Assembly: GCA_947085635.1 (NCBI GenBank)
Contig: CAMTXC010000006.1
Coordinates: forward strand, 11,564 to 75,563
DNA from: an uncultured Actinomycetes bacterium
GTDB lineage: Bacteria; Actinomycetota; Thermoleophilia; RBG-16-64-13
DNA: 64,000 nt
Reading direction: 5' to 3'
In this document: positions 23,315-46,543 of the stretch, piece by piece
Numbering within the stretch: the stretch's first letter is position 1
Layout of the letters: every line of letters starts with the position of its first letter
Position numbers and translations under genes: made by a program
The notes under the pieces: generated by a model
Database searches by the model: none
What the model was told of the DNA's origin: nothing
The model's input: only the letters and a program-made list of their open reading frames with translations

Positions 23315-23832
23315 GAGGGAACGGGTTCGTCTCTGCGCGGGTCGATGGGGAGCGCGGCGTGGCCTCCGCGCTGAAGGCCCTGCGCGAAGCGGGAGTACCG
23401 CGCGAACGCATCGAGGTGCTCTCCGACCTGCCCCTGCCCGAGAGCGTGCTCGGCGGCCGGATGCGCGCCACGAAGGTGCCGTGGTGGACCGCCACAGGCC
23501 TCGTCATCGGCCTGCTCACGGGTGTGTTCTTCTCGATTGGCACCCTGTTCCTGTACCCCCTGCTCGTGGGCGGCGAGGCTTCGCGCGTCGCGCCGCCGAA
23601 CTTCATCATCATCTACGAGCTCACCATGCTCGGCATCGTCGTGGCCACCGCGCTCGGGTTCTTCCTCGAGACGCGCGGGCGGGGCCCGCGCCGGCCTTAC
23701 TTCGAGGGAGTGAGCGTGGGCGAGATCTTCGTGGTGGTTGATATGCCGCCCGACCTCGTCCCCTCACGCGTGCGGTCGGTTCTCGAGTCGCATGGCGCGG
23801 AACCCCTGCCCGACCAGAGTGAGACTACATGA
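23311..23832 (+). CDS. DUF3341/ActD-like membrane subunit
   Basis: Soluble N-terminal domain followed by two TM helices. GTGA overlap upstream and ATGA overlap downstream. Family assignment by resemblance and gene context. Confidence 0.6.
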   Translation: MRGNGFVSARVDGERGVASALKALREAGVPRERIEVLSDLPLPESVLGGRMRATKVPWWTATGLVIGLLTGVFFSIGTLFLYPLLVGGEASRVAPPNFIIIYELTMLGIVVATALGFFLETRGRGPRRPYFEGVSVGEIFVVVDMPPDLVPSRVRSVLESHGAEPLPDQSETT

Positions 23833-25607
23833 GCGACGAGACCACGCGCACCGAGACATCTGCGGCACCCGATGCCGGAGTGCATGAGGCGGGTGTGTCC
23901 CACGCGCCGCCCGACGCCGGCGTGCCCGAGCGCGCGGGTGTGCCGGGCCAGGAAGCCGGCGCCGCCTCGCGGCGGCAGCGCCGCATCCTGATCGGTCTGC
24001 TCGCTGTCGTCGTCTTAGCGGTGCTGGTCGTGCTGGTGGCCCAGCTGTTCACCGGGTGCTGGGTCGACGTGGGGAACGAGATGGGCCGGCAACCGAATGT
24101 CGGCTATGTGGAACCTCCGCGCGGGTCGGCTCCCGACGAAGCTGTGCCCTTCCAGGGGCCCGACGTCATGCCCGGCCTCGGGTCTCCCGCCAACCCAGTC
24201 ACGCGCACCGCTGAGTCGGTCGAGCGCGGCGGCCGCAGCTACGGCACCTTCTGTCTGCCGTGCCACGGCGAGGTCGCCCCGGGCGGGCAGCCGGGCATGG
24301 TGGGCATGCTCTTCGCCCCGCCTGTGCCGAACCTCGCCGATCGCATCGACTCGCTGATCGACGGCGACGTGTTCCTCGCGGTGACCAAGGGCTTCGGGCG
24401 CATGCCCGCGCTCGCATCAAGGTTGTCGGTGGAGGAGCGCTGGCACCTGGTCAACTACCTGGGTGCTCAGGGTGACGGCGGGCCCGCGCCCGCCGGGGAC
24501 TCCGCCATCCTCCGCGGCGCCCACCTGTTCGGCGTGCAGTGTGCGTCGTGTCACGGGCCCTCCGGTCAGGGGGCCTTGGGCTCGTCTCTCCACCCGTCGA
24601 GTCTGATGGCCGAGGCCTCGCTCGACGAGATCAAGTCTCTACTCCGGGCGGGTCGCCCCGGTCTCGGCATGCCCTCGTTCGGAGGCCGCCTTTCCGAGCA
24701 AGACCTCGACGACCTGGCTGTGTTGTTGAAGCAACTCCAAGCGCAGGGGCCGTCGGCGCTCGAGGATCCCACCAGTCGGCTTCGGGAGACCACGACCACA
24801 GTCCCGGACACCACCGTCACCACGGGTACCGGAAGGACCGGCACCACACTCCCCGCGACCACCACTACCACGGTCCCGGGCACTACCACGACCACCTCGG
24901 GCGGCGGGGTGGCGGCGAGGGCGCTGGGGCAGAAGGTCTACACCGCCAACTGCCTAGGCTGCCACGGGGTCGACGGGTCGGGTGGTCTTGGCCCACGTTT
25001 GAAGCCGAGCCCATTCGTCGCCGGCTCCAGTGACGACGTGGTACGTGGGGTCATCGAGAACGGTGTGGCGGGAACGGCGATGCCCAATTGGGGCGGGCGC
25101 CTGTCGGCCGACGAGATCTCCGCGCTGGTCGACCTCCTGCGCATCTGGCAGGAGCCTTCGCCGTCGGGGGCCACCGCCACAGGCGGGCCCCCCGAGACCG
25201 TCCCCTTCTCGCACAAGGCGCACGTGGCAAAGGGCGTCACCTGTCTATTCTGCCACAGCTCGGCTGCGCGTGGCCCGGCCGCCGACCTGCCGGCCCTCGA
25301 GTTGTGTGTGGGGTGCCATCGATGGATATCCACACAGACGCCCGACACCCAGGCGGTGCTCGACGCCTTCGACGAAGGCAGGGTCGTGTCGTGGGCGCGG
25401 GTCTACAACCTGCCCGATTTCGTGTTCTTCAGCCATCAGCCTCACGTGGTCGTGGCCAAGGTCGACTGTGCCACGTGCCATGGCGACGTGGGTTCCATGA
25501 CGCTCGCTAAGCGGGCCGTGCGCCACACCATGGGCTTCTGTCTCGGGTGTCACAAGCAGCAGGCCGACAATCAGCGGCTGATCGACTGCCAGATCTGCCA
25601 CAAGTAG
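23829..25607 (+). CDS. Membrane-anchored octaheme cytochrome c: three class-I-like domains plus a pentaheme ActA-like module
   Basis: Eight CxxCH motifs: CLPCH, CASCH, CLGCH, CLFCH, CVGCH, CATCH, CLGCH, CQICH. N-terminal TM helix and a Thr-rich linker. Confidence 0.85.
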   Translation: MSDETTRTETSAAPDAGVHEAGVSHAPPDAGVPERAGVPGQEAGAASRRQRRILIGLLAVVVLAVLVVLVAQLFTGCWVDVGNEMGRQPNVGYVEPPRGSAPDEAVPFQGPDVMPGLGSPANPVTRTAESVERGGRSYGTFCLPCHGEVAPGGQPGMVGMLFAPPVPNLADRIDSLIDGDVFLAVTKGFGRMPALASRLSVEERWHLVNYLGAQGDGGPAPAGDSAILRGAHLFGVQCASCHGPSGQGALGSSLHPSSLMAEASLDEIKSLLRAGRPGLGMPSFGGRLSEQDLDDLAVLLKQLQAQGPSALEDPTSRLRETTTTVPDTTVTTGTGRTGTTLPATTTTTVPGTTTTTSGGGVAARALGQKVYTANCLGCHGVDGSGGLGPRLKPSPFVAGSSDDVVRGVIENGVAGTAMPNWGGRLSADEISALVDLLRIWQEPSPSGATATGGPPETVPFSHKAHVAKGVTCLFCHSSAARGPAADLPALELCVGCHRWISTQTPDTQAVLDAFDEGRVVSWARVYNLPDFVFFSHQPHVVVAKVDCATCHGDVGSMTLAKRAVRHTMGFCLGCHKQQADNQRLIDCQICHK

Positions 25608-25629
25608 GCGAAGAGACGAGGGAGACGGC

Positions 25630-27891
25630 GTGTTCACGGAGATGAGCAGAAGGGATTTTTTCAAGAAGGCGGGCGTGCTCTCCGCTGCCCTGGCCCTGAG
25701 CGGCTGCGGGGGCGACCGCGCCGAAGAGAGGTTGGTGCCGTTCCTTCGGTCTCCGGAGGAAGAGCTGGCCGGCGTCTTCACGCACTACGCCAGCCTGTGT
25801 CGGCAGTGCCCCGCGGGGTGCGGCATCCTGGTGACCACCATGGGAGGCCGCGCCCACAAGCTCGAAGGCAACCCCCGTCACCCGCTGAACCAAGGAAAGC
25901 TCTGTGCGCGCGGGCAGGCCGGGCTGCAGGCCCTCTACAATCCCGATCGCCTTGTCGGTCCACAGGGGCGCGCGGGCTCAGCCGACGGGTTCCAGTCGAT
26001 CACCTGGGACGCCGGGCTCGGGCGCCTGACCAAGGCGCTGAAGGCGGCGGCGTCCCGTCCGGGGTCCGGGGCGGTACGGGCGTACGGTGGCCGGCTTCCC
26101 GACCACACGTACGGTGTGGCGGCGCGTCTTCTTGCCGGGCTCGAGGGCGGCGCCCCGGATACCGATCCTGCGGAGAGCGGCACCCGGCCGCTGGTGTGGG
26201 ATCTACACCGGGCGCTCGACGGAGTGGGACTTCTCGACTCCATCACCCGCGAGATGTACGGCTCGCAGGCCGAGGGTCTGCCGTTCTTCGATCTCGCCTC
26301 CGCCGAGGTCGCGATCTCGTTCTCGGCCGACCTCTTCGGCACGTGGCTCTCTCCGGTGTACTACGGCAGGGCGTATGGCGAGATGCGGCGTGGCCGCGGA
26401 GTTACCCGCGGGTACCTTGCGCAGGTGGAGCCACGACTCTCGGCCACAGGTGTCAGCGCTGACGAATGGTTGGCGGTCGCGGCCGGGCGCGAGGCGTATG
26501 TGGCGCTCTGCCTGGGACGGGTGATCCTCGACGAAGGGCTCGCGGCCGGCCCGCGGCCCGCGGGTGTGGATGCGGTGTTCCAGGGTGTGGACGCTCGTGG
26601 CCTCGCCGCCGGCCTCGGGCTCTCCTTCGAGAGGCTTGTGCGTCTCGCCCGTATCTTCGGGAGCTCGCGGGCTCCTCTGGCGATCCCCGGCGGCGGCCTC
26701 GGGGCGGCCCGGAACGGCGCCGACGCCGTGCGCACCGTCATGGCGCTCAACCTACTGGTGGGGGCGCACGAGAGCACCCTCGGCGCGTCGTCGGCCAAGC
26801 CCGCCGACACGATCCTCGCTACCGAGACGGTCTCTTCGTTCGCCGAGGTGCGCCGGGCGATCGAGGACATGCGGTCGGGCTCTGTCGACGTGTTCCTGGT
26901 TCTCGACGGAGATCCCGTGCACGACCTCCCCTCTTCGCTGGGGTTCTCGGAGGCAGCCGCCAACGTGGGTCTGATCGTTGACTTCTCGCCGTTTCCCACC
27001 GACACCGGCGAGGCACTGGCGCATCTCCGTCTCCCCGCACCCACGTACCTCGAGACCTGGGGTTACCACGTGCCTCAGCCCGGGGCTGGGTTGGCCATCG
27101 TGGGCGCCCAACAGCCGGTGGTGCGGCAACTGCACGACACCCGCTCACCCGTGGACGTGCTCCTCGCGGCCGCCAAGGGCGTGGGCGGCCGTGTCGCCGA
27201 GGCGCTCCCGTGGGAGAACGAGGTGGCGTGCCTGAAGGACGTCGTGGACGGCCTACGCGAACGGACCGACGCCTCCATAACCTCTGGGGACCCCGAAGTC
27301 TTCTGGGTGCGCTGGCAACAGTACGGCGGTTGGTGGGCCACGCAGCCCGACGCGGACCCTCCGACCCCGCGGGCGGTGAGGCCGGGATTGGCCACGTCCG
27401 CGGCCGCGAACGTGGCGGACCCCGTCGAGGACGGGAGTGCGTTTCTGTTGCGGCCGTACGTGTCGCTCACGCTCGGTGACGGTCGTCACGCGAACCAACC
27501 TTGGCTGCATGAGACGCCCGACCCCATGACCTCGGTGATGTGGGACACCTGGGTCGAGATCGCTCCTTCCTCGGCCGCGCGACTGGGTGTCTCTACAGGC
27601 GACATGGTCAAGGTGACATCGTCGGTGGGGTCGGTCGAGGCGCCCGTCTACGTGTACCGGGGCATCGGCCCCGATGTCGTCGCGATGCCCCTGGGCGGGG
27701 GTCACCGTGCATACGGCCGCTACGCGGCGGGGCGCGGGGCGAGCGTGGGCGATCTCATCGAGCCGGTGGCCGGCGCCGAAGGTGAGCTGGCTTGGGGCGC
27801 GACTCGCGTGACCCTCGAGCCTACCGGTGAGTCGAAAGCCCTGGCTACTCTCGAAGGCTCCGAGTCGACGGTGGTTCCGGAAGGCCTGTAA
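25630..27891 (+). CDS. Tat-exported molybdopterin-oxidoreductase family subunit (ActB1/PsrA-like)
   Basis: SRRDFFKKAG twin-arginine signal. N-terminal CRQCPAGC...C FeS motif. GTG start lies 5 nt after GAGGGAG. Confidence 0.85.
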   Translation: MFTEMSRRDFFKKAGVLSAALALSGCGGDRAEERLVPFLRSPEEELAGVFTHYASLCRQCPAGCGILVTTMGGRAHKLEGNPRHPLNQGKLCARGQAGLQALYNPDRLVGPQGRAGSADGFQSITWDAGLGRLTKALKAAASRPGSGAVRAYGGRLPDHTYGVAARLLAGLEGGAPDTDPAESGTRPLVWDLHRALDGVGLLDSITREMYGSQAEGLPFFDLASAEVAISFSADLFGTWLSPVYYGRAYGEMRRGRGVTRGYLAQVEPRLSATGVSADEWLAVAAGREAYVALCLGRVILDEGLAAGPRPAGVDAVFQGVDARGLAAGLGLSFERLVRLARIFGSSRAPLAIPGGGLGAARNGADAVRTVMALNLLVGAHESTLGASSAKPADTILATETVSSFAEVRRAIEDMRSGSVDVFLVLDGDPVHDLPSSLGFSEAAANVGLIVDFSPFPTDTGEALAHLRLPAPTYLETWGYHVPQPGAGLAIVGAQQPVVRQLHDTRSPVDVLLAAAKGVGGRVAEALPWENEVACLKDVVDGLRERTDASITSGDPEVFWVRWQQYGGWWATQPDADPPTPRAVRPGLATSAAANVADPVEDGSAFLLRPYVSLTLGDGRHANQPWLHETPDPMTSVMWDTWVEIAPSSAARLGVSTGDMVKVTSSVGSVEAPVYVYRGIGPDVVAMPLGGGHRAYGRYAAGRGASVGDLIEPVAGAEGELAWGATRVTLEPTGESKALATLEGSESTVVPEGL

Positions 27892-34101: not shown

Positions 34102-34428
34102 ATGGGTAGTGGTATCGTCGAGGATCTGAACGCCGAATCGTTCGACACCGTCGTACTGGCAGCGGACGGCTCGGTGATCGTGGATTTCTGGGCTCCGTGG
34201 TGCGGGCCGTGCAAGATGGTCGGGCCGGTGCTCGAGAAACTCGCCGCCGACCACGAAGGCAAGGCGAAAGTCGTCAAGGTGAATGTTGACGAGAACCAGG
34301 AGCTCGCCGCCAAGTTCGGCATAATGAGCATCCCGACCGTGATCCTGTTCGAGGGCGGGAAGGTCAAACAGCAACTCATCGGCGCGCGCAGTCAGAAGGA
34401 CTACGAGCGCGAGTTCGGCCTCGCCTGA
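34102..34428 (+). CDS. trxA: Thioredoxin
   Basis: WAPWCGPCK active site, 108 aa. ATG follows GAAGGAGAGG. Confidence 0.9.
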   Translation: MGSGIVEDLNAESFDTVVLAADGSVIVDFWAPWCGPCKMVGPVLEKLAADHEGKAKVVKVNVDENQELAAKFGIMSIPTVILFEGGKVKQQLIGARSQKDYEREFGLA

Positions 34429-34454
34429 GAGGTCCGAGGAGGTCAATAGATTAG

Positions 34455-34781
34455 ATGAATACCGTCAAGACGGGTGAGATGATCGTCGTGGGCTCGCGCA
34501 TGTTCGACGCGTGCCGCGGAGGTGGTTGAGCGCCTCCTCTGTCTCTGGAAGAGACGGTCGGCTACATCAATCGCTACCTGCAGCAAGACTACGGTGACCA
34601 CGTCAACGTGGGCTACATCGACGTCGATAGTCCAGCCATGAAGGAGTATCCTGCCTTAGCGGAGGCGGTGGAGCTCGGTCGCGGCGTCCCGCTCGTCCTG
34701 GTGGGCGACACGGTGAAATCTCCGGCGGCTCTGTCGTTCGCGTGGATCGTCAACGAGTTCAAGGCTCTGGGGGTACTGTAG
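34455..34781 (+). CDS. Candidate selenoprotein: 108-codon thioredoxin-fold-like ORF with in-frame TGA at 34527-34529 (..FDACRGGG-U-APPLSLEET..)
   Basis: Absent from the ORF track. One frame stays open from ATG 34455 to TAG 34781 except for a single TGA. High GC3 on both sides of the TGA. A hairpin starts 9 nt after it. Confidence 0.5.
34539..34557 (+). other. SECIS-like hairpin (CUGUCUC-UGGAA-GAGACGG)
   Basis: 7-bp stem including one G-U pair. Starts 9 nt downstream of UGA 34527-34529. Confidence 0.4.
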
Positions 34782-34783
34782 AC

Positions 34784-35002
34784 ATGGCTTCGTATGACCT
34801 CAAGTGCTCCGGGTGCGGGCGGCAGTTCGAAGTGTTCGTGCAGGGCTTCCTGAAAGACCAGCACCGTGCGTGCCCGGACTGCGGCAGCTCGGAAGTCGAG
34901 CAGCTGTTCACCGGGTTCATGATGGGTTCCATGGGGGCCCGCGACTCGGTCGCGTGCGCCTCGGCGCCGCCCTCCGGCTGTTCGCATGCCGGCTTCGGCT
35001 GA
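34784..35002 (+). CDS. FmdB-family zinc-ribbon protein
   Basis: MASYDLKCSGCG..FEV....CPDCGS pattern. Confidence 0.7.
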   Translation: MASYDLKCSGCGRQFEVFVQGFLKDQHRACPDCGSSEVEQLFTGFMMGSMGARDSVACASAPPSGCSHAGFG

Positions 35003-35124
35003 GCGCACTGAATGATGGGGGCCCGTGGGGCCCCCGACTGTTCTTACTCGGCCCACACCGGGCCATGGCGGACGTTGCGGAGGTGGCTGAGGTGAGTGGT
35101 GCGATCGGAGAAACGGCGGAGCGA

Positions 35125-35637
35125 ATGACCCGCAGGTGGGTCGCGTTCCTTGTCATCTCGTCCGTGGTGCTGGTGTTCGCTCTGTGCGCGGCCGCGCCGG
35201 CATCCGCCGCGAGTCTGACTCCGGATCAGGAGGCGCTCGCGTCTGACCTCGACGGCAGGCTCATCTCTCCTTGTTGTTGGACTCAGACGATCGCCGTGCA
35301 CGATAGCCAGATAGCCGAGGAGCTGAGGGCGCAGGTGCGCCTGCTCGTGGCTCAAGGCCTGACCGAGGACGACATTCTCGACGCGCTCGTCGCGCAGTAC
35401 GGCGAGGAGATCCTCGCGGCTCCCCGGGCGGCCGGGTTCAACCTGCTCGCCTACGCCCTCCCGGCTCTCATCATCATTCTGGGGGTCGTGGGCATCGCCC
35501 TGCTCGCCTTGAGGTGGCGTGACGGTGGCGCCGAGGTCGCGCCCGCGGCGGCCGCAGTGGGCGACCGGGGCGTATCCGCAGAGCGGGATCCCCTCCGCTC
35601 CCGCCTCGACGAGGAGCTTTCCCGCTTCGATTCCTGA
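35125..35637 (+). CDS. CcmH/NrfF-like cytochrome c maturation protein, variant with vicinal Cys pair
   Basis: Signal peptide, LISPCCWTQTIAVHDSQIAEELR in place of the LRCxxC motif, C-terminal TM helix. Alternative start at ATG 35065. Confidence 0.6.
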   Translation: MTRRWVAFLVISSVVLVFALCAAAPASAASLTPDQEALASDLDGRLISPCCWTQTIAVHDSQIAEELRAQVRLLVAQGLTEDDILDALVAQYGEEILAAPRAAGFNLLAYALPALIIILGVVGIALLALRWRDGGAEVAPAAAAVGDRGVSAERDPLRSRLDEELSRFDS

Positions 35638-37117: not shown

Positions 37118-38755
37118 ATGGCCAAGGTCGTCATCGATCCGGTCACACGTATAGAGGGTCACCTTCGCGTCGAGGTGGAGGTGGAGAACGGCAAGGTCGT
37201 CGATGCGTGGGCTTCGAGCACCATGTTCCGCGGCCTCGAGATGATCGTGGAGAACCGGCCCTGGATGGACGCGTGGCACTACACGCACAGGGTATGCGGC
37301 GTGTGCCCCACCCCGCACGGTCACAACTCCGCCATGTCGCTCGAGAACGCGGCGGGTGTCTCTCCACCGCCGAACGGGCGTCTCATGCGCAACCTGCTGG
37401 AGTGCGCCCAGCTCCTGCACGACCACGTGCTGTGGTTCTACATCTTGAACGGGCTCGACTACGTGAACGTGGTGAGCGCGCTCTCGGCCAAGGCGTCCTC
37501 GCCTCAACTGCAGGCTGTGCAGACACGGCTCAAGGCCTTCGTCGACTCAGGGCAGCTCGGCTTCCTCGAGAGCGGCTACTGGGATCATCCGGCCTACGCC
37601 CTCGACCCTGAACTCAACCTGCAACTTGCCGCCCACTACCTCGAGTCGATCAAGGTGCAGGCGGTCGCCTCGGAGGCCTCGGCCCTGTTCGGCGGCAAGT
37701 TCCCGTACCATATGTCCACTCCGCCGGGCGGGTTCTCCTCGGTGCCGCACCAGGACCAGATCGACCGCTTCGAAGCCAAGGTGCGTGAGGTCAAGGCTTG
37801 GATCGACGGCACCCTGGTGCCCGATCTCCTGGCGATCGCCCCCTTCTATCTCGACCAGGCCGGCATCGGTCAAGGTCATGGCAACTACTTCAGCTGGGGC
37901 GTCATCGACGAGGACCTCGAGGGTGGCGACCCCTACAAGCGGCTCTTCCCGCGGGGGGGCATCTTCGGAGCCTTCGACGGCAACCTCACCGTGCAGCAGG
38001 TGGACCACGAGGCCGACGTGCGCGAGTGGGTCACGAGCTCCTGGAACACCCAGTACGAAGGAGCCCTGCATCCCTGGGAGGGCATCACCGGCCCGGACTT
38101 CACCGGGAAAGAGGGCATCGGCGAGATCGACCGTGAGGGTCGCTACGCCTGGGAGAAGAGCGCGCACCTGAAGGGCGGCCCCGTGGAAGTGGGCCCGCTC
38201 GCCCAGATGCTCATGGCCTATCTCGGCGGACCGGCCGATCATCCCGCCAAGAAGCTCATCGACAACACGCTGGCCGCCGTCGGCCAGGCCGGCAACCCGG
38301 CGGTGCTCCTCTCGAACCTCGGCCGCATCGCGGCGCGGGTTCTCAAGGTGAAGATCATCGGCGACAAGACCCTGGACTACATCGCGCAGTTGCGGGCCAA
38401 CATGGCTGCAGGCGACATGAACTTCTACACGCCTGTGCCCAAGAACCCCACCGGCCGTGGCTTCAGTGGTTGGGACGCCCCGCGCGGCTCGCTGTCCCAC
38501 TGGGCCACCCTGGAGGACGGCCTGGTGAAGCATTACCAGATCATCACGCCGTCGGGCTGGAACTTTGCGCCGCGGGCCGGTGACGGTCGCGTGCGAGGCC
38601 CGGTGGAACAAGCACTCGTGGGCACGCCGGTCGCAGACCCGGAGCGCCCCTTGGAGGTGTTACGGACCTTACACTCCTTCGACCCCTGAATGGCCTGCTC
38701 GGTTCACGTGATTGAACCGAAGAGCAACAAGATCCTCAAGTTCCGCGTCAAGTAG
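37118..38755 (+). CDS. [NiFeSe]-hydrogenase large subunit with selenocysteine at TGA 38687-38689
   Basis: N-terminal RVCGVCPTPHG. The ORF track stops at ..HSFDP, but the same frame continues as U-MACSVH-VIEPKSNKILKFRVK, which gives DPUxxCxxH plus a cleavable tail. Confidence 0.85.
38699..38720 (+). other. SECIS-like hairpin (UCGGUUCA-CGUGAU-UGAACCGA)
   Basis: Perfect 8-bp stem starting 9 nt after UGA 38687-38689. Confidence 0.5.
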
Positions 38756-39416: not shown

Positions 39417-39557
39417 GGTCGGCCCTCGAGACGCCGTCACCCCCCAGGCGGCGTCTCGCCCTTTCCGGTTCGGAGCCCTCCGTGCATGGGGGCAGGGTCG
39501 TTTCCGGGACACCCTTCAACGGGTACATTCACATGAACACCGCCCTTGGAGGAATCC

Positions 39558-40499
39558 GTGCCTGCAGACCTACAGAGATCCGTTCACTACGACGTAGTCG
39601 TGGTCGGCGCCGGGCCGGCCGGCATCACGGCCGCCATCAACATCGCCAACCGCAAGCGCACGGTGCTGGTGCTCGACTCCCAGTCCCCGTTCTCGAAGGC
39701 GGGCAAAGCGCCCGCCGTGCCCAACTACCCGGGGTTCGCCTACGCCACCGGTGAGCAGCTCGGCGAGGCGTTCCTCCAGCACCTCGACCGCTTCGAGGTG
39801 CCCATCGTGCGCGAGAAGGCCTCGAAGATCATGGCCGACGACGACGGGTTCCTCGTGTTTACCGACCGTGAGATGTACCGGGTGAAGGCGGTGATCCTCG
39901 CCACCGGGGTGCATCGGTTGACCGATCTCGAGGGCGAGGATGCCCTGGTCGGGCGGGGGGTGAGCTACTGCGCCAACTGCGACGGCCGTCTGTTCGGCGG
40001 GCGGGAGGTGGTCTACATCGCCTACAGCCCGGATGGGGAGGAGGAAGCCTCCGTCCTCTCCGAGGAACTCGGCGTCTCCGTGACCTACCTGCCGCTGTAC
40101 GCCGAGGAGCCGAACCTGCCCGAGAGCGTGAAGGTGTTGCCGCGGGAGCGCCCCGACCGGCTGTACTCCCGCGACGGCAAGGTGGCGGTCGAGTTGAAGA
40201 GCGGCCCCCTCGTGGTCGACGGGGTGTTCGTGCACAAGCCGAGCGTCGCTCCCGGCGATCTGGTCGAAGGCATCCAGGTGGAAGATGGGCACGTGGTGGT
40301 CGACCGGCGTATGGCGGCCGGAGTGCCCGGCGTGTTCGCGGCGGGGGACGCGACGGGCGAGCCGTACCAGATCGCGAAGGCCGTGGGCGAAGGCCAGGTG
40401 GCGGCCCTGCATGCTCTACGGTACCTGCGCGAGCGTGCACGTCCACCCACCCCGGAGGAGCCGCCGGCGCTTGCGGCGGCCGACTGCGTACCGCGATAG
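39558..40499 (+). CDS. Thioredoxin-reductase-like flavoprotein lacking canonical NADPH-binding motifs
   Basis: GAGPAG FAD motif, CANCDG redox motif, GDATG. AYSPDG replaces GGGNSA. GTG 39558 follows GGAGGA. Confidence 0.8.
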   Translation: MPADLQRSVHYDVVVVGAGPAGITAAINIANRKRTVLVLDSQSPFSKAGKAPAVPNYPGFAYATGEQLGEAFLQHLDRFEVPIVREKASKIMADDDGFLVFTDREMYRVKAVILATGVHRLTDLEGEDALVGRGVSYCANCDGRLFGGREVVYIAYSPDGEEEASVLSEELGVSVTYLPLYAEEPNLPESVKVLPRERPDRLYSRDGKVAVELKSGPLVVDGVFVHKPSVAPGDLVEGIQVEDGHVVVDRRMAAGVPGVFAAGDATGEPYQIAKAVGEGQVAALHALRYLRERARPPTPEEPPALAAADCVPR

Positions 40500-40608
40500 A
40501 TCTTGAACGGCGTGCAGGTAGCGGACGAAGCCGGCGAGGGACCCCTTACAGAGGATCGCCTACTCCGCCTCGTGCTCGGCACGGCCGCATCGTGCGCGCA
40601 GCAGCGCC

Positions 40609-41007
40609 CTAGCGCTCTATGGCTCCCCTCCACGCCTGGATGCCCTGGGCCATGTCGAACACGTCTTTGTAGCCCGCCGCGCTGAGCATCGCCGCCGCCT
40701 CGGCGCTTCGGCTCGCTGTGAGACAGTAGACGATGATCGGGCGGTCGCCGGGCACCTCGGCCATGCGCGACTTGAGTTGTTGCACGGGTATGAGGACTGC
40801 GCCGGGGATGTGGCCCGCGTCGAACTCGCTTTGGGTTCGAACGTCGAGCAGGAAGACCTGTTCTCCCGAGTCGAGTCGCTCCCTCACCGTCTCCGGGCTG
40901 ATCGAGGTGTATGTGCCCGCGCACCCCGAGAGTACTGCGATCGCTCCCACTATCGCCGCCGCCGCGAGTGCCGCGAGGGCGCGGCGTGCGGTGTCTTGGC
41001 GACTCAT
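40609..41007 (-). CDS. Rhodanese-domain sulfurtransferase, lipoprotein
   Basis: LSGC lipobox. Active-site loop CLTASRS. Confidence 0.8.
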   Translation of the reverse strand: MSRQDTARRALAALAAAAIVGAIAVLSGCAGTYTSISPETVRERLDSGEQVFLLDVRTQSEFDAGHIPGAVLIPVQQLKSRMAEVPGDRPIIVYCLTASRSAEAAAMLSAAGYKDVFDMAQGIQAWRGAIER

Positions 41008-41339
41008 CGCTTCACGTCGAAGGGCCAGCGGCTGATACCGCCCTCCATGTTGTACACGTTCTCGTACCCGAGTTCCACCAGGAGTCGCGCCCCACGCTTG
41101 CTTCGGGCGGCGCTCAGGCAGTAGAGGATGATGTCGCCGCCGGTCTTCAGTTCTTGGTGTCTGCGGGGCAGGTCGTTCAGAGGCATCAACTTGGCCTTGG
41201 GGATATGACCCTGCGAGAACTCACCGGGGGAGCGGACGTCGATCAGTTGCACCCGGTCTCCTGCACTCAAGCGCGCCTTGACATCGGCCGGAGAAAGGTT
41301 GGTGTATCCCTGCGGTTCGCGATTGAACAACTTGAACAT
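41004..41339 (-). CDS. Single-domain rhodanese sulfurtransferase
   Basis: Active-site loop CLSAARS. ATG 41339 follows AAGAGGAG. Its stop overlaps the downstream start. Confidence 0.8.
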   Translation of the reverse strand: MFKLFNREPQGYTNLSPADVKARLSAGDRVQLIDVRSPGEFSQGHIPKAKLMPLNDLPRRHQELKTGGDIILYCLSAARSKRGARLLVELGYENVYNMEGGISRWPFDVKR

Positions 41340-41383
41340 TGATCCAACTCCTCTTTGCGATGTGCCCCTCCGGGCGATACCGG

Positions 41384-41761: not shown

Positions 41762-41827
41762 TCCCGTTTCGACGTTCTCCAGTGACGGGCACAGCGGAAT
41801 ATCGGACGGTCGAAAGGAAGCGCACGG

Positions 41828-42514
41828 ATGAATAGGAACTACCTTGTCGCCATCATCGTGGCGGCCGTCGTCGTGGTCGGCCTCATCGTGGTGGTACCCA
41901 ACCTCGATGGCGGGAACACCGGCGGAACCAGCGGAACCACTCTTGGATCCGCGCCGCCCATCCCTGAGGACGCCACCATGCCCGAAGGTCATCCCGACTT
42001 GGGGGAAGGCTCAGATGCGACCGGGACGGAAGCCTCCCTCGAGGCCCTCGTGGCCGAAGCCGAGGCCGCATATGAGGCCGACAAGACCGACCTGGTAGCA
42101 GTCCTGGCGCTCGGAGACGCGTATCTTCAGGCGAACCGAGTCGACGATGCTACCCGCGTGCTGAACGAAGCATTGGCAATCGATGCAGGGAACGCCGAAG
42201 CCAAGGCCGGTCTGGCCATGGTCGACTTCGTGAACGGCGATACCGCGGCCGCGCAGAGCAAGCTCGAAGCCGTCATCGCTGAGTCCCCCGACTCGCAGAG
42301 GGCCTTGTACGATCTCGCCGTGGTCTACTTCTCGACGGATCAGCGCGACAAGGCGAAGGACACCTGGGCGAAGGTGGTCGAGGTCAACCCGCTCAGCGAG
42401 CTGGGCGAGATGGCCAAGCAGTTCATCGATCTCATGGGTCAAACGGAGACCTCGGGCGGCAGCCCGCACGGCGCCGATGGGTCAACGGGGACCACGGCTA
42501 CCACGAGCCAGTGA
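41828..42514 (+). CDS. Membrane-anchored TPR-repeat protein (CcmI/NrfG-like TPR module?)
   Basis: N-terminal TM helix, acidic linker, three or four TPR-like repeats. Confidence 0.65.
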   Translation: MNRNYLVAIIVAAVVVVGLIVVVPNLDGGNTGGTSGTTLGSAPPIPEDATMPEGHPDLGEGSDATGTEASLEALVAEAEAAYEADKTDLVAVLALGDAYLQANRVDDATRVLNEALAIDAGNAEAKAGLAMVDFVNGDTAAAQSKLEAVIAESPDSQRALYDLAVVYFSTDQRDKAKDTWAKVVEVNPLSELGEMAKQFIDLMGQTETSGGSPHGADGSTGTTATTSQ

Positions 42515-42589
42515 TCGGGTTCGACCAGCCGGCCCTCGTGGGCCTCACCGGCCTCGTAGGCCTCGCGTGCCTCACCGGGAGAGTCACGC

Positions 42590-43477
42590 TTGTATCCTGA
42601 GCTCTTCAGCATAGGCCCGGTAACCATCCACTCCTTCGGGGTGATGATGTCGCTGGCCTTCCTGGTCTCGGGGGCGGTGGCCGCGTGGCAGCTCAAGCGT
42701 CGGGGGATAGACCCGGAGCTCGCGTACTCGCTGCTCATCGCCGCCATCGTCGGCGGCGTGTTGGGCGCCAAGGTGCACTATCTGCTCGTGCACCCCGATC
42801 AGTTCCGCGAAGCGGCGTTCAGCGGCTCGGGCTTGATCTGGTACGGCGGACTGTTCGGAGGCGTGATCGCCTGCACGGTGGTCGCCGCGCTGTCGAAGCC
42901 GCGCACGGCGCTCGTAGCCGACGCGATTGCTCCGGCCCTCGCGGCCGGCTATGCCGTCGGCCGGGTGGGGTGCCTGTTGAACGGCGACGACTACGGTGTC
43001 CCCACAAGCCTGCCCTGGGCGATGTCGTTCCCCCAGGGCTCTCCGCCGACGGATCTTCTGGTGCATCCCACCCAGATATACGAGAGCCTCATGTCGCTCG
43101 TCATCCTGGGTGTTCTGCTGTGGGTGCTCGCCCCTCGCCTCAAGCGGGCCGGCGCCTTGTTCTGGTCGTATGTGGGCTTGGCCGGCGTCGAGCGGTTCAT
43201 CGTGGAGTTCGTGCGCACGAACGACGACGTCCTCTTGGGCCTCACGCAGGCCCAGGTGATCAGCGTGGTCCTCATGGTGGCCGGCGTCGCCGGCGTGTGG
43301 TGGCTCGAGTCGCGCCCCGCCGGTCTTGCGGCCGCCGGCGGTGGCTCCGCGGGAGGTCACCCAGGGGCCCAGCGGGTGCGGTCCTCCTCCTCGCCGCGAG
43401 TCTCTACCGGCGGCTCGAAGGCGGGCGGCTCGAAGGCGGACGGCTCGAAGGGTCAAAGAAAGCACACGCGGGCGTGA
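42590..43477 (+). CDS. lgt: Prolipoprotein diacylglyceryl transferase
   Basis: HSFGVMM, GGLFGG, GRVGCLLNGDDYG and HPTQIYES motifs. TTG start. The C-terminal tail contains a 15-bp x3 repeat (GGSKA). Confidence 0.9.
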   Translation: MYPELFSIGPVTIHSFGVMMSLAFLVSGAVAAWQLKRRGIDPELAYSLLIAAIVGGVLGAKVHYLLVHPDQFREAAFSGSGLIWYGGLFGGVIACTVVAALSKPRTALVADAIAPALAAGYAVGRVGCLLNGDDYGVPTSLPWAMSFPQGSPPTDLLVHPTQIYESLMSLVILGVLLWVLAPRLKRAGALFWSYVGLAGVERFIVEFVRTNDDVLLGLTQAQVISVVLMVAGVAGVWWLESRPAGLAAAGGGSAGGHPGAQRVRSSSSPRVSTGGSKAGGSKADGSKGQRKHTRA

Positions 43478-43547
43478 GGGTTGGCCCCTCCGCAGACTCA
43501 CCGACTTGCGCATAAAATAGGAGAAACCGACTTCAGGAGTGGTCTCG

Positions 43548-44693
43548 ATGGTCTTCGGCATGATTTCACGGATCCGGCTACGCGCCGTCCTCTACATCGC
43601 GGTGCTCGTGACGACCTCGCTGATCCTGGCCGCATTCGTCGCAGCCCAGCCGGTCGCAGCCGAGGAGCACACGACCACGTCGACCACGTCCGGCACGACC
43701 GACGAAACGACCTCGGTCACGACGGGCGGTACGACCAGCGAGACGACCACAGCCGTGGTCGCTCGACCCGGCGTCACCCCTGCCCCAGAGGGCTACGAAC
43801 CGGTGAACCCCGGCTTGGTGGCCGCGCAGATGGGGGTGCAGATCTGGCCGGAGTACGACACCAAGGACGTGCTGGTGCTTCTCGACGTCACCCTGCCGGC
43901 TACCACCGTGTTCCCCTACTCCTTCAGCTTCTACGTGCCGAAGGGGGCGAGGCTCGCCGGCTTGGCGGAGATCACCGAGGCCGGCGGCTTCGACTACACG
44001 CTCGGCGTCCCCGTCCAGGTCCCCGGCGAGGTGATGGACCTCGTCACCGTCACGGTGCCCAAGCGCCCGGTGCTTCGACTTGAGTACTACTACGATCCAG
44101 GCGTCGGCGTTCCGGGTCAGAAGTCGTTCCCGATCCTCTTCCAGGCTCCCGCCGACGTGGGTTCACTGTCCTTCGGCGTGCAGCAACCATCGGACGCTAC
44201 GGGTTTCTCGACTGAACCGGCCTTGCCCCAGACGTCCACCGACTCTGAAGGCTTCACCTACTTCTTCACGAACTTCTCCGCCATCAAGGCGGGCGAGATG
44301 GTCGAGGTGCAGGTTTCATACACCAAGACCAGTGCCGATCCATCGTTCTCTTCCGGTTCGACCGGCGGCGATCCGGTACAGGCGACGAACAGCAACCTAC
44401 TGTTGCTGATGCTTGCTGCCATCGTTCTCGTTATCGGGGGGATGGTCGCGTATCGTCTGTTGGGCCGCCGTGAGCCTGCGCCCGCCGGCAGGGGCGCCGC
44501 TTCGCGGGCGGGTGGAAGTGCGGCCGGTCGGCCGGGTTCGCGATCCGATAGTCGATCGAAATCGCGCGCCTCCGGCGGTCAGGGCTCGAGTGAGGACGCG
44601 GGCGGGCCCGCACGGTTCTGCACGCAATGCGGAGGCCGCCTGCAGAAGAAAGATCGTTTCTGTCCGGCCTGCGGGCACCCGCGGGAATCTTGA
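43548..44693 (+). CDS. Secreted-domain / single-TM / cytoplasmic zinc-ribbon protein, paralog 1
   Basis: Signal peptide, Thr-rich linker, IWPEYD...YYYD...SY.K domain, TM helix, C-terminal FCTQCG..RFCPACG. Confidence 0.7.
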   Translation: MVFGMISRIRLRAVLYIAVLVTTSLILAAFVAAQPVAAEEHTTTSTTSGTTDETTSVTTGGTTSETTTAVVARPGVTPAPEGYEPVNPGLVAAQMGVQIWPEYDTKDVLVLLDVTLPATTVFPYSFSFYVPKGARLAGLAEITEAGGFDYTLGVPVQVPGEVMDLVTVTVPKRPVLRLEYYYDPGVGVPGQKSFPILFQAPADVGSLSFGVQQPSDATGFSTEPALPQTSTDSEGFTYFFTNFSAIKAGEMVEVQVSYTKTSADPSFSSGSTGGDPVQATNSNLLLLMLAAIVLVIGGMVAYRLLGRREPAPAGRGAASRAGGSAAGRPGSRSDSRSKSRASGGQGSSEDAGGPARFCTQCGGRLQKKDRFCPACGHPRES

Positions 44694-44760
44694 TGGAGAA
44701 TCTTGATGGTCTGAAGGCTCCGGCCGGTCAAGACGGACGCCCGGTTGAGATCCCCGCGTC

Positions 44761-44800
44761 TACTATGAGACGTAGTTGATTCCTACTACACTGCGTAGTA
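44761..44800. promoter_or_regulatory. Two adjacent operator-like repeats: TACTAT-N5-GTAGTT and TACTAC-N5-GTAGTA
   Basis: Positions 44761-44777 and 44784-44800, about 100 nt upstream of paralog 2. Confidence 0.5.
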
Positions 44801-44900
44801 TGATGCCGCAGAAGTAAGCGCCGGCGTTCACAAGCTTGGTGGTTGGCGGATCCATATGCCGGCGTACGGACCGTATACCAGCGGCACGAGGGGATCTAGC

Positions 44901-45857
44901 ATGAGTAGTTCTGGCGGAAGACGGTATGTGAGGGCGGCGCTTGTGGTACTGACCTCCTTGGCGTTGGTGCTCCTGCTCAGTCCGGCAGCGTTGGCCGCCG
45001 GGATGTCGGCTTCATCGATGAAGGTATCGATTTGGCCCGAGTATGACGACCCCCGCGTGTTGGTGATATACCAGGCGGAACTCGATGAATCGGTGCAGCT
45101 TCCCGTGGACGTGACGTTCAATGTGCCGAAGGGAGCCGAAGTCGCGATGGCGTGCGAGGTCGACCCATCGGACGGACATTCCTGCAAGCCTTTCGAACTC
45201 GTCGACCAAGGCGACTATCAGAGCCTCACCTACAAGGTGGAGACCCAGCGGAAGGTCTTCTTCGAGTACTACTACGATGCCTTCCCGGTCGGGCAGACGC
45301 TGCGCGAGTTCGATGTGCCTCTTCGCCTCACCTTTCCGGTGACCGAGCTGACCGTCGAGGTGCAGGAACCCGCACGATCGAGCGGGTTCGTTCTGAACCC
45401 CGACTTCCCCCGGCAGACGCAGGATTCCAAGGGGATCACGTACCATCTCCAGACAATCGCGTCTCCCGCTCTTGATGAGCCTGTGACGGTTGGTATCTCG
45501 TACAGCAAGCAGGACTCCGATCCGTCGGTGGCGCCTTCGTCTGATGGTTCCGCACCGACCCCGGCCGCCGCCGGTGGAAGCGTTGGTTTTTCCAACGGTA
45601 AGACCTTCGCCTTCCTCGTGGTGATCGTGGGTATCGGCGCGCTCGGCCTGGGGGGCTACAGTGTGCTCCGGCCCCGCCCAGCGGTGGCCCGGAGCCGAGC
45701 TGCGACCCCGAATAGGAGAACCTCGAGGCCGGTGCGCGAGGTCCAAGGCGGCGACGTCAGGTCGGCTCGTGGGCAAGGCAAGTTCTGCACTCATTGCGGC
45801 GAGAAGATAGGTGGGCGCGACCGCTTCTGCCCCGACTGTGGCAACGAGCAAGGCTGA
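44901..45857 (+). CDS. Secreted-domain / single-TM / cytoplasmic zinc-ribbon protein, paralog 2
   Basis: Same architecture and shared motifs (IWPEYDD, FEYYYD, ISYSK, FCTHCG..RFCPDCG). ATG 44901 follows GAGGGGA. The ORF-track start is 44856. Confidence 0.7.
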   Translation: MSSSGGRRYVRAALVVLTSLALVLLLSPAALAAGMSASSMKVSIWPEYDDPRVLVIYQAELDESVQLPVDVTFNVPKGAEVAMACEVDPSDGHSCKPFELVDQGDYQSLTYKVETQRKVFFEYYYDAFPVGQTLREFDVPLRLTFPVTELTVEVQEPARSSGFVLNPDFPRQTQDSKGITYHLQTIASPALDEPVTVGISYSKQDSDPSVAPSSDGSAPTPAAAGGSVGFSNGKTFAFLVVIVGIGALGLGGYSVLRPRPAVARSRAATPNRRTSRPVREVQGGDVRSARGQGKFCTHCGEKIGGRDRFCPDCGNEQG

Positions 45858-45893
45858 TCAGGTGCGTGCACGCGACCTCGACGGGCTGCCGGC

Positions 45894-46478: not shown

Positions 46479-46543
46479 GATATGGACGGCGTGAAACGTA
46501 AACTGCGAGATGCGGTGGTCGTCGAGCGAAGGAGCGGGTCGCG

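What the first reader, a model, noticed from the sequence alone, without database searches (positions are those of the whole stretch)
34455..34781. Unannotated ORF downstream of trxA with an in-frame UGA: candidate new thioredoxin-fold selenoprotein
The ORF track shows nothing on the plus strand between trxA (ends 34428) and the FmdB gene (34784). One frame runs from ATG 34455 to TAG 34781 and is interrupted only by TGA 34527-34529. It translates as MNTVKTGEMIVVGSRMFDACRGGG-U-APPLSLEETVGYINRYLQQDYGDHVNVGYIDVDSPAMKEYPALAEAVELGRGVPLVLVGDTVKSPAALSFAWIVNEFKALGVL. GC3 is high on both sides of the TGA. A 7-bp hairpin (34539-34557) starts 9 nt after the UGA, the same spacing as at the hydrogenase UGA in this window. 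The layout is a beta-strand, a C-x4-U redox-like motif, a helix, then YIDVD, which is thioredoxin-fold-like. It loosely recalls YuzD/DUF1462-type disulfide oxidoreductases, but I do not recognise C-x4-U as a described selenoprotein family.
Basis: partly seen in the sequence, partly recalled or inferred. Interest (0 to 1): 0.8.

Follow-up and report, generated by a model that had tools for sequence, protein, structure and literature searches.

The report
New YuzD-like selenoprotein beside thioredoxin
A small gene that annotation pipelines cut in half at an in-frame UGA most likely encodes a 108-residue selenocysteine protein of a previously uncatalogued family, sitting in the thioredoxin operon of uncultured Thermoleophilia bacteria.

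Summary
ORF 34455-34781 (+) has one in-frame TGA, at 34527-34529.

- **Conservation of the TGA.** It sits at the same codon in 13 other Thermoleophilia-type loci (61-98% identity) and in three distant homologues. Public databases hold only C-terminal fragments.
- **Coding signal.** Both sides of the TGA evolve as one reading frame, with pN/pS 0.35 on each side and above 1.4 in the other frames.
- **SECIS.** An 8-bp hairpin with a GGA loop (34539-34557) starts 9 nt after the UGA and meets the published bacterial SECIS criteria. It shows synonymous-site freezing and compensatory changes.
- **Cys homologues.** Distant full-length homologues carry Cys at the U column (C-x4-C-G-P).
- **Sec use by the organism.** The window's [NiFeSe] hydrogenase has the canonical DP-U-xxC UGA.
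- **Family.** Profile comparisons and a confident model place the protein in the YuzD/DUF1462 thioredoxin-fold superfamily. U25 aligns with the second Cys of YuzD's CxxC. The protein itself hits no Pfam or NCBIfam model, and no C-x4-U or YuzD family appears in a 2026 catalogue of 119 prokaryotic selenoprotein families.
- **Context.** The order trxA, this gene, fmdB is invariant.

The most likely function is a thioredoxin-recycled Cys20/Sec25 oxidoreductase. This is inferred, not shown. A metal or selenium chaperone role is the main rival. Sec machinery genes were not seen in the window.

The parts
34103..34428 (+). trxA: canonical thioredoxin (WCGPC), stop TGA, 26 nt upstream of the selenoprotein gene
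   Evidence: PF00085 at 2.4e-30. It lies immediately upstream of the homologue wherever that flank could be examined: tblastn detected it in 10 of 15 loci, and called thioredoxin genes sit upstream in L001-L009.
34438..34442 (+). GGAGG Shine-Dalgarno-like motif, 12 nt before ATG 34455
   Evidence: Read directly from the sequence. Its function is inferred.
34455..34781 (+). Selenoprotein gene: 108 codons plus TAG, YuzD/DUF1462-related thioredoxin fold with a C20-x4-U25 motif
   Evidence: conserved TGA; pN/pS 0.35 on both sides; model pLDDT 83.6, beta-alpha-beta-alpha-beta-beta-alpha; homology to DUF1462-type proteins.
34512..34514 (+). TGC, Cys20, the invariant partner cysteine
   Evidence: Invariant in all 27 aligned superfamily members.
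34527..34529 (+). TGA, proposed Sec25 codon
   Evidence: TGA in 14/14 Thermoleophilia-type sequences and in L024, L025 and L033. Aligned with Cys in the Cys-type homologues.
34539..34557 (+). Bacterial SECIS-type hairpin: 5' arm 34539-34546 (CUGUCUCU), loop 34547-34549 (GGA), 3' arm 34550-34557 (AGAGACGG)
   Evidence: fold. Leu/Ser/Leu codons +4 to +6 are frozen as CTG TCT CTG in 14/14; 96.9% of cells paired and 3 pairs with compensatory changes, versus 36-66% and 0 in slid controls; pS 0.32 here versus 0.63 in the rest of the gene. Criteria taken from PMC13188914.
34689..34691 (+). CCG, Pro79, the invariant proline just before beta3, at the position of the thioredoxin-fold cis-proline
   Evidence: Invariant in alignment A6. 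Beta3 spans residues 80-83 in the model. The cis conformation is inferred.
34784..35002 (+). fmdB-family zinc-ribbon gene (CxxC...CxxC), starting 2 nt after the selenoprotein's stop
   Evidence: PF09723 at 2.3e-11. Present right after the homologue in all 15 loci checked, from a 1-nt overlap to a gap of a few nt where the boundary could be read.
37118..38755 (+). [NiFeSe] hydrogenase large subunit with Sec codon TGA 38687-38689 (HSFDP-U-MACSVH). It serves as evidence that this organism decodes UGA as Sec.
   Evidence: The TGA is conserved in 9 related loci. A hairpin lies 9 nt after the UGA.
39537..40499 (+). Thioredoxin-reductase-like flavoprotein (CANC motif)
   Evidence: Translation. It lies downstream in 8 of 15 related loci, and directly after fmdB where the hydrogenase is absent (L004, L019).

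Best explanation
ORF 34455-34781 is one gene for a 108-residue cytoplasmic selenoprotein. The ribosome reads UGA-25 as selenocysteine. SelB with Sec-tRNA(Sec) would be recruited by an 8-bp, GGA-loop SECIS hairpin that starts 9 nt downstream and is itself coding sequence (L-S-L-E-E-T). The protein has a minimal thioredoxin fold of the YuzD/DUF1462 superfamily. Cys20 and Sec25 lie in the loop after beta1, where YuzD has CxxC, and face the invariant Pro79.

It is co-transcribed with trxA upstream and is probably translationally coupled to an FmdB-type zinc-ribbon gene downstream. I propose it works as a selenol/thiol oxidoreductase. Sec25 attacks an oxidised substrate, a Cys20-Sec25 selenenylsulfide forms, and TrxA (with the TrxB-like reductase nearby) recycles it.

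Shown: the gene, the conserved UGA, the hairpin, the homology and the synteny. Inferred: Sec insertion itself, the redox cycle, the partners and the substrate (unknown). My confidence that this is a genuine Sec-decoded gene is about 0.9. My confidence in the Trx-coupled oxidoreductase role is about 0.5.
For: - **Only fragments in databases.** All 17 database homologues are C-terminal fragments of 59-81 aa.
- **In-frame TGA with conserved flanks.** DAC[RH]xGG-TGA-[AG]P.LSLEET in 3 metagenomic lineages and 12 GTDB species representatives. The same holds in distant L024, L025 and L033.
- **One reading frame.** pN/pS is 0.349 upstream and 0.347 downstream of the TGA, versus 1.45 and 1.74 in the other frames.
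- **SECIS.** The 3-nt loop GGA, 8-bp stem and 17 nt between UGA and loop all lie within the published model, and the fold energy of the 45-nt segment from the UGA (-14.8 kcal/mol) passes its limit. Codons are frozen. Pairing is 96.9% with 3 compensatory pairs.
- **Cys at the U column.** Seen in P0029 and P0038-P0040; the U column is an invariant Cys in A6 (U entered as C in the Sec-form rows).
- **TGA is otherwise a stop here.** It ends both trxA and fmdB.
- **Sec use by the organism.** Conserved DP-U-xxC in the neighbouring hydrogenase.
- **Fold and family.** AF2 model pLDDT 83.6 with thioredoxin topology. The best TM-score, 0.57, is to 1xg8, a DUF1462 protein. hhalign to DUF1462-matching proteins gives 97.9% probability, E 5.4e-13. 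The broad profile hits 1xg8 first at E 2.2e-4, with U aligned to the second Cys of CASC.
- **Synteny.** The order trxA, gene, fmdB holds in every locus where the flanks could be read; the trxB-like gene is nearby in 8 of 15.
Against: - No selA, selB, selD or tRNA-Sec lies in the 64-kb window or in the fetched loci. Sec decoding rests on the hydrogenase analogy.
- There is no protein-level evidence.
- The Sec loop (residues 22-26) is modelled with pLDDT below 50, and the N-terminal 28 residues had no alignment depth.
- Foldseek E-values are weak (0.013 or higher).
- A C-x4-U spacing is atypical for thioredoxin-fold redox centres (CxxC, CxxU, UxxC). It equals the Cys13-x4-Cys18 spacing of the metalloid-binding loop of ArsD.
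- Gene neighbourhoods of distant relatives differ (riboflavin, cobalamin, radical SAM), so the trx linkage is clade-specific.
- The single-sequence hairpin z-score is only -1.76.
Confidence: 0.6

Rival explanations
1. It is the same Sec-containing protein, but the Cys20-x4-Sec25 loop is a ligand site rather than a redox couple. It would act as a soft-metal, metalloid or selenium carrier (ArsD-like or CopZ-like chaperone, or a selenium-delivery protein), handing its cargo to a partner such as the FmdB zinc-ribbon protein, with thioredoxin keeping it reduced.
For: - The C-x4-C/U-G spacing and its position in the loop after beta1 match ArsD's Cys13-x4-Cys18-Gly. hhalign aligns the two motifs in register.
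- Sister proteins in Syntrophomonadaceae carry 4-5 Cys in this loop. They give weak hits to the ArsD-related VcpD model (E 4e-4) and to a metallothionein model.
- csoR and copZ lie just upstream in most loci, and Se_S_carrier plus DsrE-like genes lie nearby in L001 and L004.
- The loop is glycine-rich and flexible (GGG-U).
Against: - The ArsD match is not significant (probability 6%). ArsD does not appear in the PDB profile or fold searches.
- Only two ligand residues exist per monomer, versus three in ArsD.
- No arsA or other metal-pump partner is nearby.
- The invariantly adjacent upstream gene is trxA, and the invariant proline before beta3 is the hallmark of redox-active thioredoxin folds.
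Confidence: 0.25
2. UGA-25 is a real stop. The region would encode a 24-residue peptide, and a separate downstream protein would start at an internal codon, as the public gene calls assume.
For: Gene callers produce 57-81 aa products. TGA is the normal stop of trxA and fmdB in this genome.
Against: - The called starts differ between homologues and fall inside helix 1 or strand 2.
- In the window the first in-frame start after the TGA is GTG 34608, which would delete helix 1.
- Codons +1 to +10 are under the strongest purifying selection in the ORF frame (pN/pS 0.118).
- Full-length Cys homologues are continuous across this point.
- The N-terminal 24 codons show the same pN/pS as the rest.
Confidence: 0.04
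3. UGA-25 is read through, but by a near-cognate or suppressor tRNA (Trp, Cys or Arg), or it is a pseudogene or assembly error rather than a Sec codon.
For: Sec machinery was not observed directly. One ENA record translates the homologous TGA as Trp (P0027).
Against: - The TGA is identical in 17 independent assemblies from different studies, which excludes an error or a pseudogene.
- The ENA Trp is a translation-table artefact, because the DNA reads TGA.
- A conserved SECIS-type hairpin with covariation has no role in simple read-through.
- The homologous residue is Cys, the usual Sec counterpart.
- A second canonical Sec site lies in the same locus.
Confidence: 0.03

Closest known systems
YuzD / DUF1462 (PF07315), e.g. 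S. aureus SA0798, PDB 1xg8 (annotated 'putative disulfide oxidoreductase YuzD')
   Same: Both are roughly 100-110 aa single-domain thioredoxin folds, with the reactive pair in the loop after beta1, a conserved Y-[VI]-D-[VI] strand 2 and a proline before beta3. The homology evidence is as follows. hhalign to DUF1462-matching relatives gives 97.9% probability. 1xg8 is the top PDB hit of the superfamily profile (E 2.2e-4). It also gives the best TM-score (0.57). Fourteen of 27 aligned relatives hit PF07315.
   Different: The window protein itself does not reach the Pfam model (no hit at E <= 1). Its motif is C-x4-U rather than C-x2-C. Sec replaces the second Cys. Its genomic context is a trxA/fmdB operon in Thermoleophilia rather than Bacillota.
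Known thioredoxin-fold bacterial selenoproteins (Sec-Trx, Sec-Grx, SaoT, HUIPC-motif and VPGUxxT-family proteins, Thioredoxin-like Sec.1/Sec.2) listed in PMC13188914
   Same: These are also small thioredoxin-fold proteins with Sec at the redox-motif position, decoded through an intragenic bacterial SECIS, and routinely truncated in annotation.
   Different: Their motifs are UxxC, CxxU, CxU or UxC. None has C-x4-U and none belongs to DUF1462. No NCBIfam selenoprotein model matches this protein.
ArsD arsenic metallochaperone
   Same: It has a thioredoxin-like fold. Its Cys13-x4-Cys18-Gly lies in the loop after beta1 with the same spacing as C20-x4-U25-Ala, and an in-register alignment is obtained.
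   Different: The similarity is not statistically supported (probability 6%). ArsD uses three cysteines including a vicinal pair and works with ArsA, and neither is present here.
Cys-type homologues in Bacillota MAGs (P0029, P0038-P0040; 'hypothetical protein')
   Same: They share the same N-terminal architecture, F-G-[ST]-R-x3-C-x2-G-G-C-G-P...EE, at 29-33% identity over 92% of the length.
   Different: They have Cys instead of Sec and a 20-residue basic C-terminal tail. They sit in a different neighbourhood, with cobalamin biosynthesis genes and an AIRS-like protein.

Membership tests
Bacterial selenoprotein gene (Sec-UGA plus bSECIS) | In-frame UGA conserved at the same codon among orthologues, with conserved sequence on both sides | tested here: met
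   14/14 Thermoleophilia-type sequences and 3 distant lineages. pN/pS is 0.35 on both sides.
Bacterial selenoprotein gene (Sec-UGA plus bSECIS) | [quoted passage not shown] | tested here: met
   Loop GGA, 8 bp, 17 nt spacing, -14.8 kcal/mol for the 45-nt segment. Conservation and covariation are. bSECISearch itself was not available.
Bacterial selenoprotein gene (Sec-UGA plus bSECIS) | Homologues with Cys at the Sec position | tested here: met
   P0029, P0036 and P0038-P0040, plus the 4-Cys group. The column is an invariant Cys in A6, with U entered as C in the Sec-form rows.
Bacterial selenoprotein gene (Sec-UGA plus bSECIS) | Genome encodes selA, selB, selC (tRNA-Sec) and selD | not testable with these tools
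The indirect evidence is the conserved DP-U-xxC UGA in the adjacent [NiFeSe] hydrogenase.
Bacterial selenoprotein gene (Sec-UGA plus bSECIS) | Selenium demonstrably incorporated into the protein | not testable with these tools
   This needs 75Se labelling or mass spectrometry.
DUF1462 / YuzD (PF07315) | Score at or above the Pfam gathering threshold (25 bits) | tested here: not met
   The window protein gives no hit at E <= 1. Relative P0035 (L024, same GSR...C-x4-U motif) scores 34.9 bits. Fourteen of 27 superfamily members hit at E <= 0.01.
DUF1462 / YuzD (PF07315) | Demonstrable homology to family members (profile-profile or solved structure) | tested here: met
   hhalign 97.9%, E 5.4e-13. 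1xg8 is the top PDB hit at E 2.2e-4.
DUF1462 / YuzD (PF07315) | Thioredoxin-like fold resembling 1xg8 | tested here: inconclusive
   The model has pLDDT 83.6 with beta-alpha-beta-alpha-beta-beta-alpha topology. 1xg8 gives the best TM-score (0.57, rmsd 3.9) but its Foldseek E-value is 0.15, and all hits have E >= 0.013.
DUF1462 / YuzD (PF07315) | CxxC motif after strand 1 | tested here: not met
   The motif is C-R-G-G-G-U (C-x4-U). The alignment to 1xg8 needs a 2-residue gap inside the motif.
Thioredoxin proper (PF00085) | Pfam match and WCGPC active site | tested here: not met
   No Pfam hit, and the motif is absent.
ArsD metallochaperone | Sequence or profile similarity to ArsD, and the Cys12-Cys13-Cys18 triad | tested here: not met
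   hhalign probability is 6% for A6 and 0.4% for A3. Only two reactive residues are present. The ArsD query sequence was checked against an annotated arsD at 99.2% identity.
Any curated NCBIfam selenoprotein family | HMM hit | tested here: not met
   Zero families at E <= 1 with U replaced by C. Relatives give only sub-threshold hits.

The most novel reading that the evidence does not exclude
The Cys-x4-Sec loop may not be a disulfide-type redox centre. It could be a selenolate-based ligand site. In that case this would be the first Sec-dependent metallochaperone or selenium carrier of the YuzD/ArsD-like fold, acting with the co-translated FmdB zinc-ribbon protein. It could deliver a metal or selenium to partners such as the neighbouring [NiFeSe] hydrogenase or the copper system. 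Repeated, independent Sec acquisition at different Cys positions of this superfamily would then mark a conserved metal-handling function for the uncharacterised DUF1462 family.
Probability: 0.2. Interest if true: 0.75.

Novelty: new variant of a known kind. Interest (0 to 1): 0.55.

Why it matters
- It adds a selenoprotein family that current pipelines systematically truncate. Every database entry found is a fragment. NCBIfam, Pfam and the 2026 catalogue of 119 families all lack it.
- It extends Sec usage to a DUF family (YuzD/DUF1462) with no known function, and to uncultured Thermoleophilia.
- Sec is fixed in the whole Thermoleophilia clade. No Cys orthologue was found among close relatives. 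The motif spacing C-x4-U is unusual, so the site is probably functionally critical.
- The invariant order trxA, gene, fmdB gives a concrete, testable biochemical hypothesis for both the YuzD-like family and the FmdB zinc-ribbon family. FmdB is itself listed as a selenoprotein family elsewhere.
- Practically, the frozen UCUCU-GGA-AGAGA hairpin and the G-G-U-[AG]-P motif are good seeds for re-annotation.

Tried and rejected
- **Family searches.** Pfam, NCBIfam and PDB sequence searches with the single protein or the clade profile A3 gave no meaningful hits.
- **Rfam.** Nothing at gathering threshold for the whole window, and only a chance snoRNA hit at E 7.6 around the site. Bacterial SECIS elements are not captured there.
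- **tRNA scan.** ARAGORN found no tRNA or tRNA-Sec in the window or in 21 loci.
- **Window survey.** Pfam annotation of about 40 window ORFs found no selA, selB or selD.
- **Structure prediction.** The single-sequence model with X was poor (pLDDT 56.6), and its fold search was weak. I replaced it with an alignment-based model.
- **ArsD homology.** Tested and not supported.
- **Literature.** A search for 'YuzD' returned only unrelated text matches. Searches for DUF1462, PF07315 or UCP010603, and for ArsD with selenoprotein, found no prior description.
- **Hydrogenase accessory role.** Rejected as a dedicated function, because trxA, the gene and fmdB persist in loci without an adjacent hydrogenase (L004, L019-L021).
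- **Stop-codon reassignment.** Rejected, because TGA terminates trxA and fmdB.

Full report
**1. The observation**

The sequence is as described.
- ATG 34455 follows an in-frame TAG, and the frame runs to TAG 34779-34781.
- The only interruption is TGA 34527-34529. The translation is MNTVKTGEMIVVGSRMFDACRGGG-U-APPLSLEETVGYINRYLQQDYGDHVNVGYIDVDSPAMKEYPALAEAVELGRGVPLVLVGDTVKSPAALSFAWIVNEFKALGVL.
- A GGAGG motif lies 12 nt upstream.
- trxA (PF00085, 2.4e-30) ends 26 nt upstream. An FmdB-type zinc-ribbon gene (PF09723) starts 2 nt downstream.
- GC by codon position is coding-like on both sides of the TGA: GC3 is 0.79 and 0.77. It is not coding-like in the other frames.
- The hairpin at 34539-34557 has 8 bp with a GGA triloop and starts 9 nt after the UGA.
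- The [NiFeSe] hydrogenase UGA at 38687 is followed by an 8-bp hairpin at the same offset.

**2. Is it one translated gene?**

A search of 5.8 billion proteins returned 17 homologues. All are C-terminal fragments of 59-81 aa with heterogeneous start positions. That pattern is expected if gene callers stop at a conserved UGA.

I read the DNA upstream of these fragments in three metagenomic lineages, and in 12 GTDB species representatives. All of the latter are uncultured Thermoleophilia, Gaiellales or 'Actinomycetota' MAGs; the closest is JAHJSA010000068.1 at 98%.
- Every one has TGA at the same codon.
- The conserved flanks are G-S-[RH]-x2-D-A-C-[RH]-x-G-G-TGA-[AG]-P-x-L-S-L-E-E-T.

Across 12 of these sequences:

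| Region | pN/pS |
|---|---|
| 17 codons before the TGA, ORF frame | 0.349 |
| 83 codons after the TGA, ORF frame | 0.347 |
| Upstream part, other two frames | 1.45 and 1.74 |

TGA is otherwise a normal stop here; it ends both trxA and fmdB. Pseudogene, assembly error, two-ORF and codon-reassignment readings are therefore very unlikely.

**3. SECIS**

The hairpin meets the published bacterial SECIS constraints (PMC13188914, read):

| Criterion | Published range | Observed |
|---|---|---|
| Apical loop | 3-9 nt, G in first two positions | GGA |
| Upper stem | 4-16 bp | 8 bp |
| UGA-to-loop spacing | 16-37 nt | 17 nt |
| MFE | <= -7.5 kcal/mol | -14.8 kcal/mol (45 nt) |

Alone it is only mildly unusual (z = -1.76). 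The comparative signal is strong.
- The Leu-Ser-Leu codons forming the 5' arm are CTG TCT CTG in 14 of 14 sequences. Other Leu and Ser codons in the gene use up to six synonymous forms.
- Synonymous divergence is 0.32 in codons +1 to +10, versus 0.63 in the rest of the gene.
- Thr +9 is only ACG or ACA, which keeps a U-G or U-A pair.
- I added two distant Sec-containing homologues: L024 (AUCUCC-GGA-GGAGAU) and L025 (AAUCUC-AGGAA-GAGAUU). With them, 96.9% of cells pair and three pairs show changes on both sides. When the 3' arm is slid, pairing falls to 36-66% with no compensatory changes.
- A fourth lineage, L033, has GGUCUCU-GGA-AGAGAUC.

**4. Cys homologues and family**

An exhaustive HMMER scan of 1.84 billion representatives found only 21 hits.
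- Among them are full-length proteins with Cys at the U position: P0029 (LCFSGG-C-GPG) and P0036.
- N-terminally truncated ones proved to carry TGA as well: L024 (KCFSGG-TGA-AP), L025 (SCSKGG-TGA-GP) and L033 (SCSSG-TGA-VP).

A profile search then recovered 204 proteins. Many are labelled 'disulfide oxidoreductase YuzD' by JGI. In a 27-sequence alignment, C20, the U25 column (entered as C in the Sec-form rows), G47, Y54 and P79 are invariant.

Placement of the window protein:
- It hits no Pfam or NCBIfam model itself.
- P0035 (the L024 protein) scores 34.9 bits on PF07315/DUF1462, above the 25-bit threshold.
- Fourteen of the 27 aligned proteins hit DUF1462.
- hhalign between the Thermoleophilia clade and the DUF1462-matching group gives 97.9% probability, E 5.4e-13.
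- The superfamily profile's top PDB hit is 1xg8 (S. aureus SA0798, a YuzD homologue) at E 2.2e-4. U aligns to the second Cys of its CASC motif.

An AlphaFold2 model was built with X at residue 25, using an alignment that is deep only for residues 29-108.
- It has pLDDT 83.6 and the topology beta-alpha-beta-alpha-beta-beta-alpha.
- The Sec loop has low confidence.
- All Foldseek PDB hits are thioredoxin folds. The best TM-score is 0.57, to 1xg8, but E-values are weak.

The protein is therefore a divergent, Sec-containing relative of the YuzD/DUF1462 family. It is not a member by the Pfam threshold, and its motif is C-x4-U rather than CxxC.

**5. Context and mechanism**

tblastn with the window's neighbours against 15 related loci shows the following.
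- fmdB follows the gene directly in all 15 loci, from a 1-nt overlap to a gap of a few nt.
- trxA lies immediately upstream wherever that flank could be read. tblastn detects it in 10 of the 15 loci, and gene calls show it in L001-L009.
- DtxR, CsoR, CopZ and DUF1405 genes usually lie upstream.
- A [NiFeSe] hydrogenase lies downstream in 9 loci, and a TrxB-like reductase in 8.
- Where the hydrogenase is absent (L004, L019), the reductase follows fmdB directly.

The hydrogenase's DP-U-xxC UGA is conserved in all nine loci that hold its large subunit. This indicates that these organisms decode Sec. No selA, selB, selD or tRNA-Sec is in the window or the loci.

My best reading is a small cytoplasmic selenol/thiol oxidoreductase. 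Its Cys20-Sec25 selenenylsulfide would be recycled by the co-transcribed thioredoxin system, and the FmdB zinc-ribbon protein may be a partner. The gene, UGA, hairpin, homology and synteny are shown. Sec insertion, the redox cycle and the partners are inferred. The substrate is unknown.

**6. Main rival**

The C-x4-U-[AG] spacing in the loop after beta1 equals ArsD's Cys13-x4-Cys18-Gly. Sister proteins carry 4-5 Cys there and brush the ArsD-related VcpD and metallothionein models. A metal, metalloid or selenium carrier role is therefore plausible.

However, ArsD similarity is not significant: hhalign probability is 6% with an in-register alignment and 0.4% for the clade profile. I had first checked the ArsD query against an annotated arsD gene. 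I give this rival about 0.25.

**7. Novelty**

- The 2026 catalogue of 119 prokaryotic selenoprotein families and subfamilies lists no C-x4-U motif and no YuzD or DUF1462 entry.
- The deep-Sep, BSepDB and Haft papers do not mention it.
- Full-text searches for DUF1462, PF07315 or UCP010603 with selenoproteins found nothing.
- NCBI records for the homologues are truncated 'hypothetical proteins'.

It is a previously uncatalogued selenoprotein family of a familiar kind: a thioredoxin-fold protein decoded through a bacterial SECIS. It has an unusual motif, and Sec is fixed throughout the clade. I rate the interest as moderate (0.55). New selenoprotein families are still found regularly, so a specialist would find it solid and useful rather than startling.

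Noticed in passing
L026:3097-3396, L027, L028:3938-4237, L029, L032:~78-335: A second, independent Sec subfamily exists in the same superfamily. Syntrophomonadaceae-type YuzD-like proteins with a 4-Cys loop (GGCSCCSGGC...CG) have forms with TGA at a different Cys column...TGG-TGA-SCTSDC...SCGTT. One is in an NCBI Syntrophomonas sp. MAG (GCA_028709585.1), whose annotation also lists a Cys-type homologue (P0079, same locus-tag prefix). All sit next to a PPIase gene and the riboflavin operon. Their downstream RNA fold does not obviously fit the G-in-loop SECIS model.
   Followed up: partly
L033:~1150-1547: A homologue from a 62% GC organism has C-x3-U (FGSRFQESCSSG-TGA-VPSRSLEEIT). It keeps the same UCUCU-GGA-AGAGA hairpin core, shifted by one nucleotide.
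   Followed up: partly
L025:94-432 (protein P0027): The ENA protein record shows Trp where the DNA has TGA. The gene was apparently called with a TGA=Trp translation table, so a Sec codon is masked as W in the database.
   Followed up: yes
window 37118-38755: The [NiFeSe] hydrogenase large subunit reads HSFDP-TGA(38687-38689)-MACSVH and continues for 21 more codons. An 8-bp hairpin with loop CGUGAU starts 9 nt after the UGA. The TGA is conserved in 9 related loci, while public gene calls stop at 523 aa.
   Followed up: partly
window 39537-40499: This is a thioredoxin-reductase-like flavoprotein with a CANC motif, ending at TAG. In L004-L006 the homologue is 580 aa with an extra C-terminal Thioredoxin_3 domain.
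   Followed up: no
L001:1089-1725, L004:1670-2312: Se_S_carrier (PF11823) and DsrE-like genes lie between the UPF0182 and DtxR genes in some related loci. The window has only a gap of about 380 nt at that position.
   Followed up: no
window 21722-27888 and 60595-61668: An NrfD-type membrane subunit, a multihaem cytochrome c (594 aa) and a molybdopterin oxidoreductase (769 aa) form a cluster. An FdhD/NarQ gene lies far downstream. I did not check them for Sec codons.
   Followed up: no
window 35066-35637, 41786-53121, 59518-60303: The window holds cytochrome c maturation system I genes: two CcmH, a TPR CcmH/CycH-like protein, CcmE, CcmF and a CcmC-like protein. It also holds Lgt and a DsbD-type transmembrane reductant transporter. 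The thioredoxin/selenoprotein operon is therefore embedded in a thiol-redox and haem-handling region.
   Followed up: no
L030:5084-6387: The closest Cys-type homologue (P0040, Bacillota MAG GCA_023381695.1) follows a 266-aa protein with a weak AIRS (PurM/SelD/HypE-type) domain hit and a cobalamin biosynthesis cluster.
   Followed up: no
window 40500-41380: This stretch of about 880 nt after the TrxB-like gene has no coding-like ORF in the GC3 screen.
   Followed up: no
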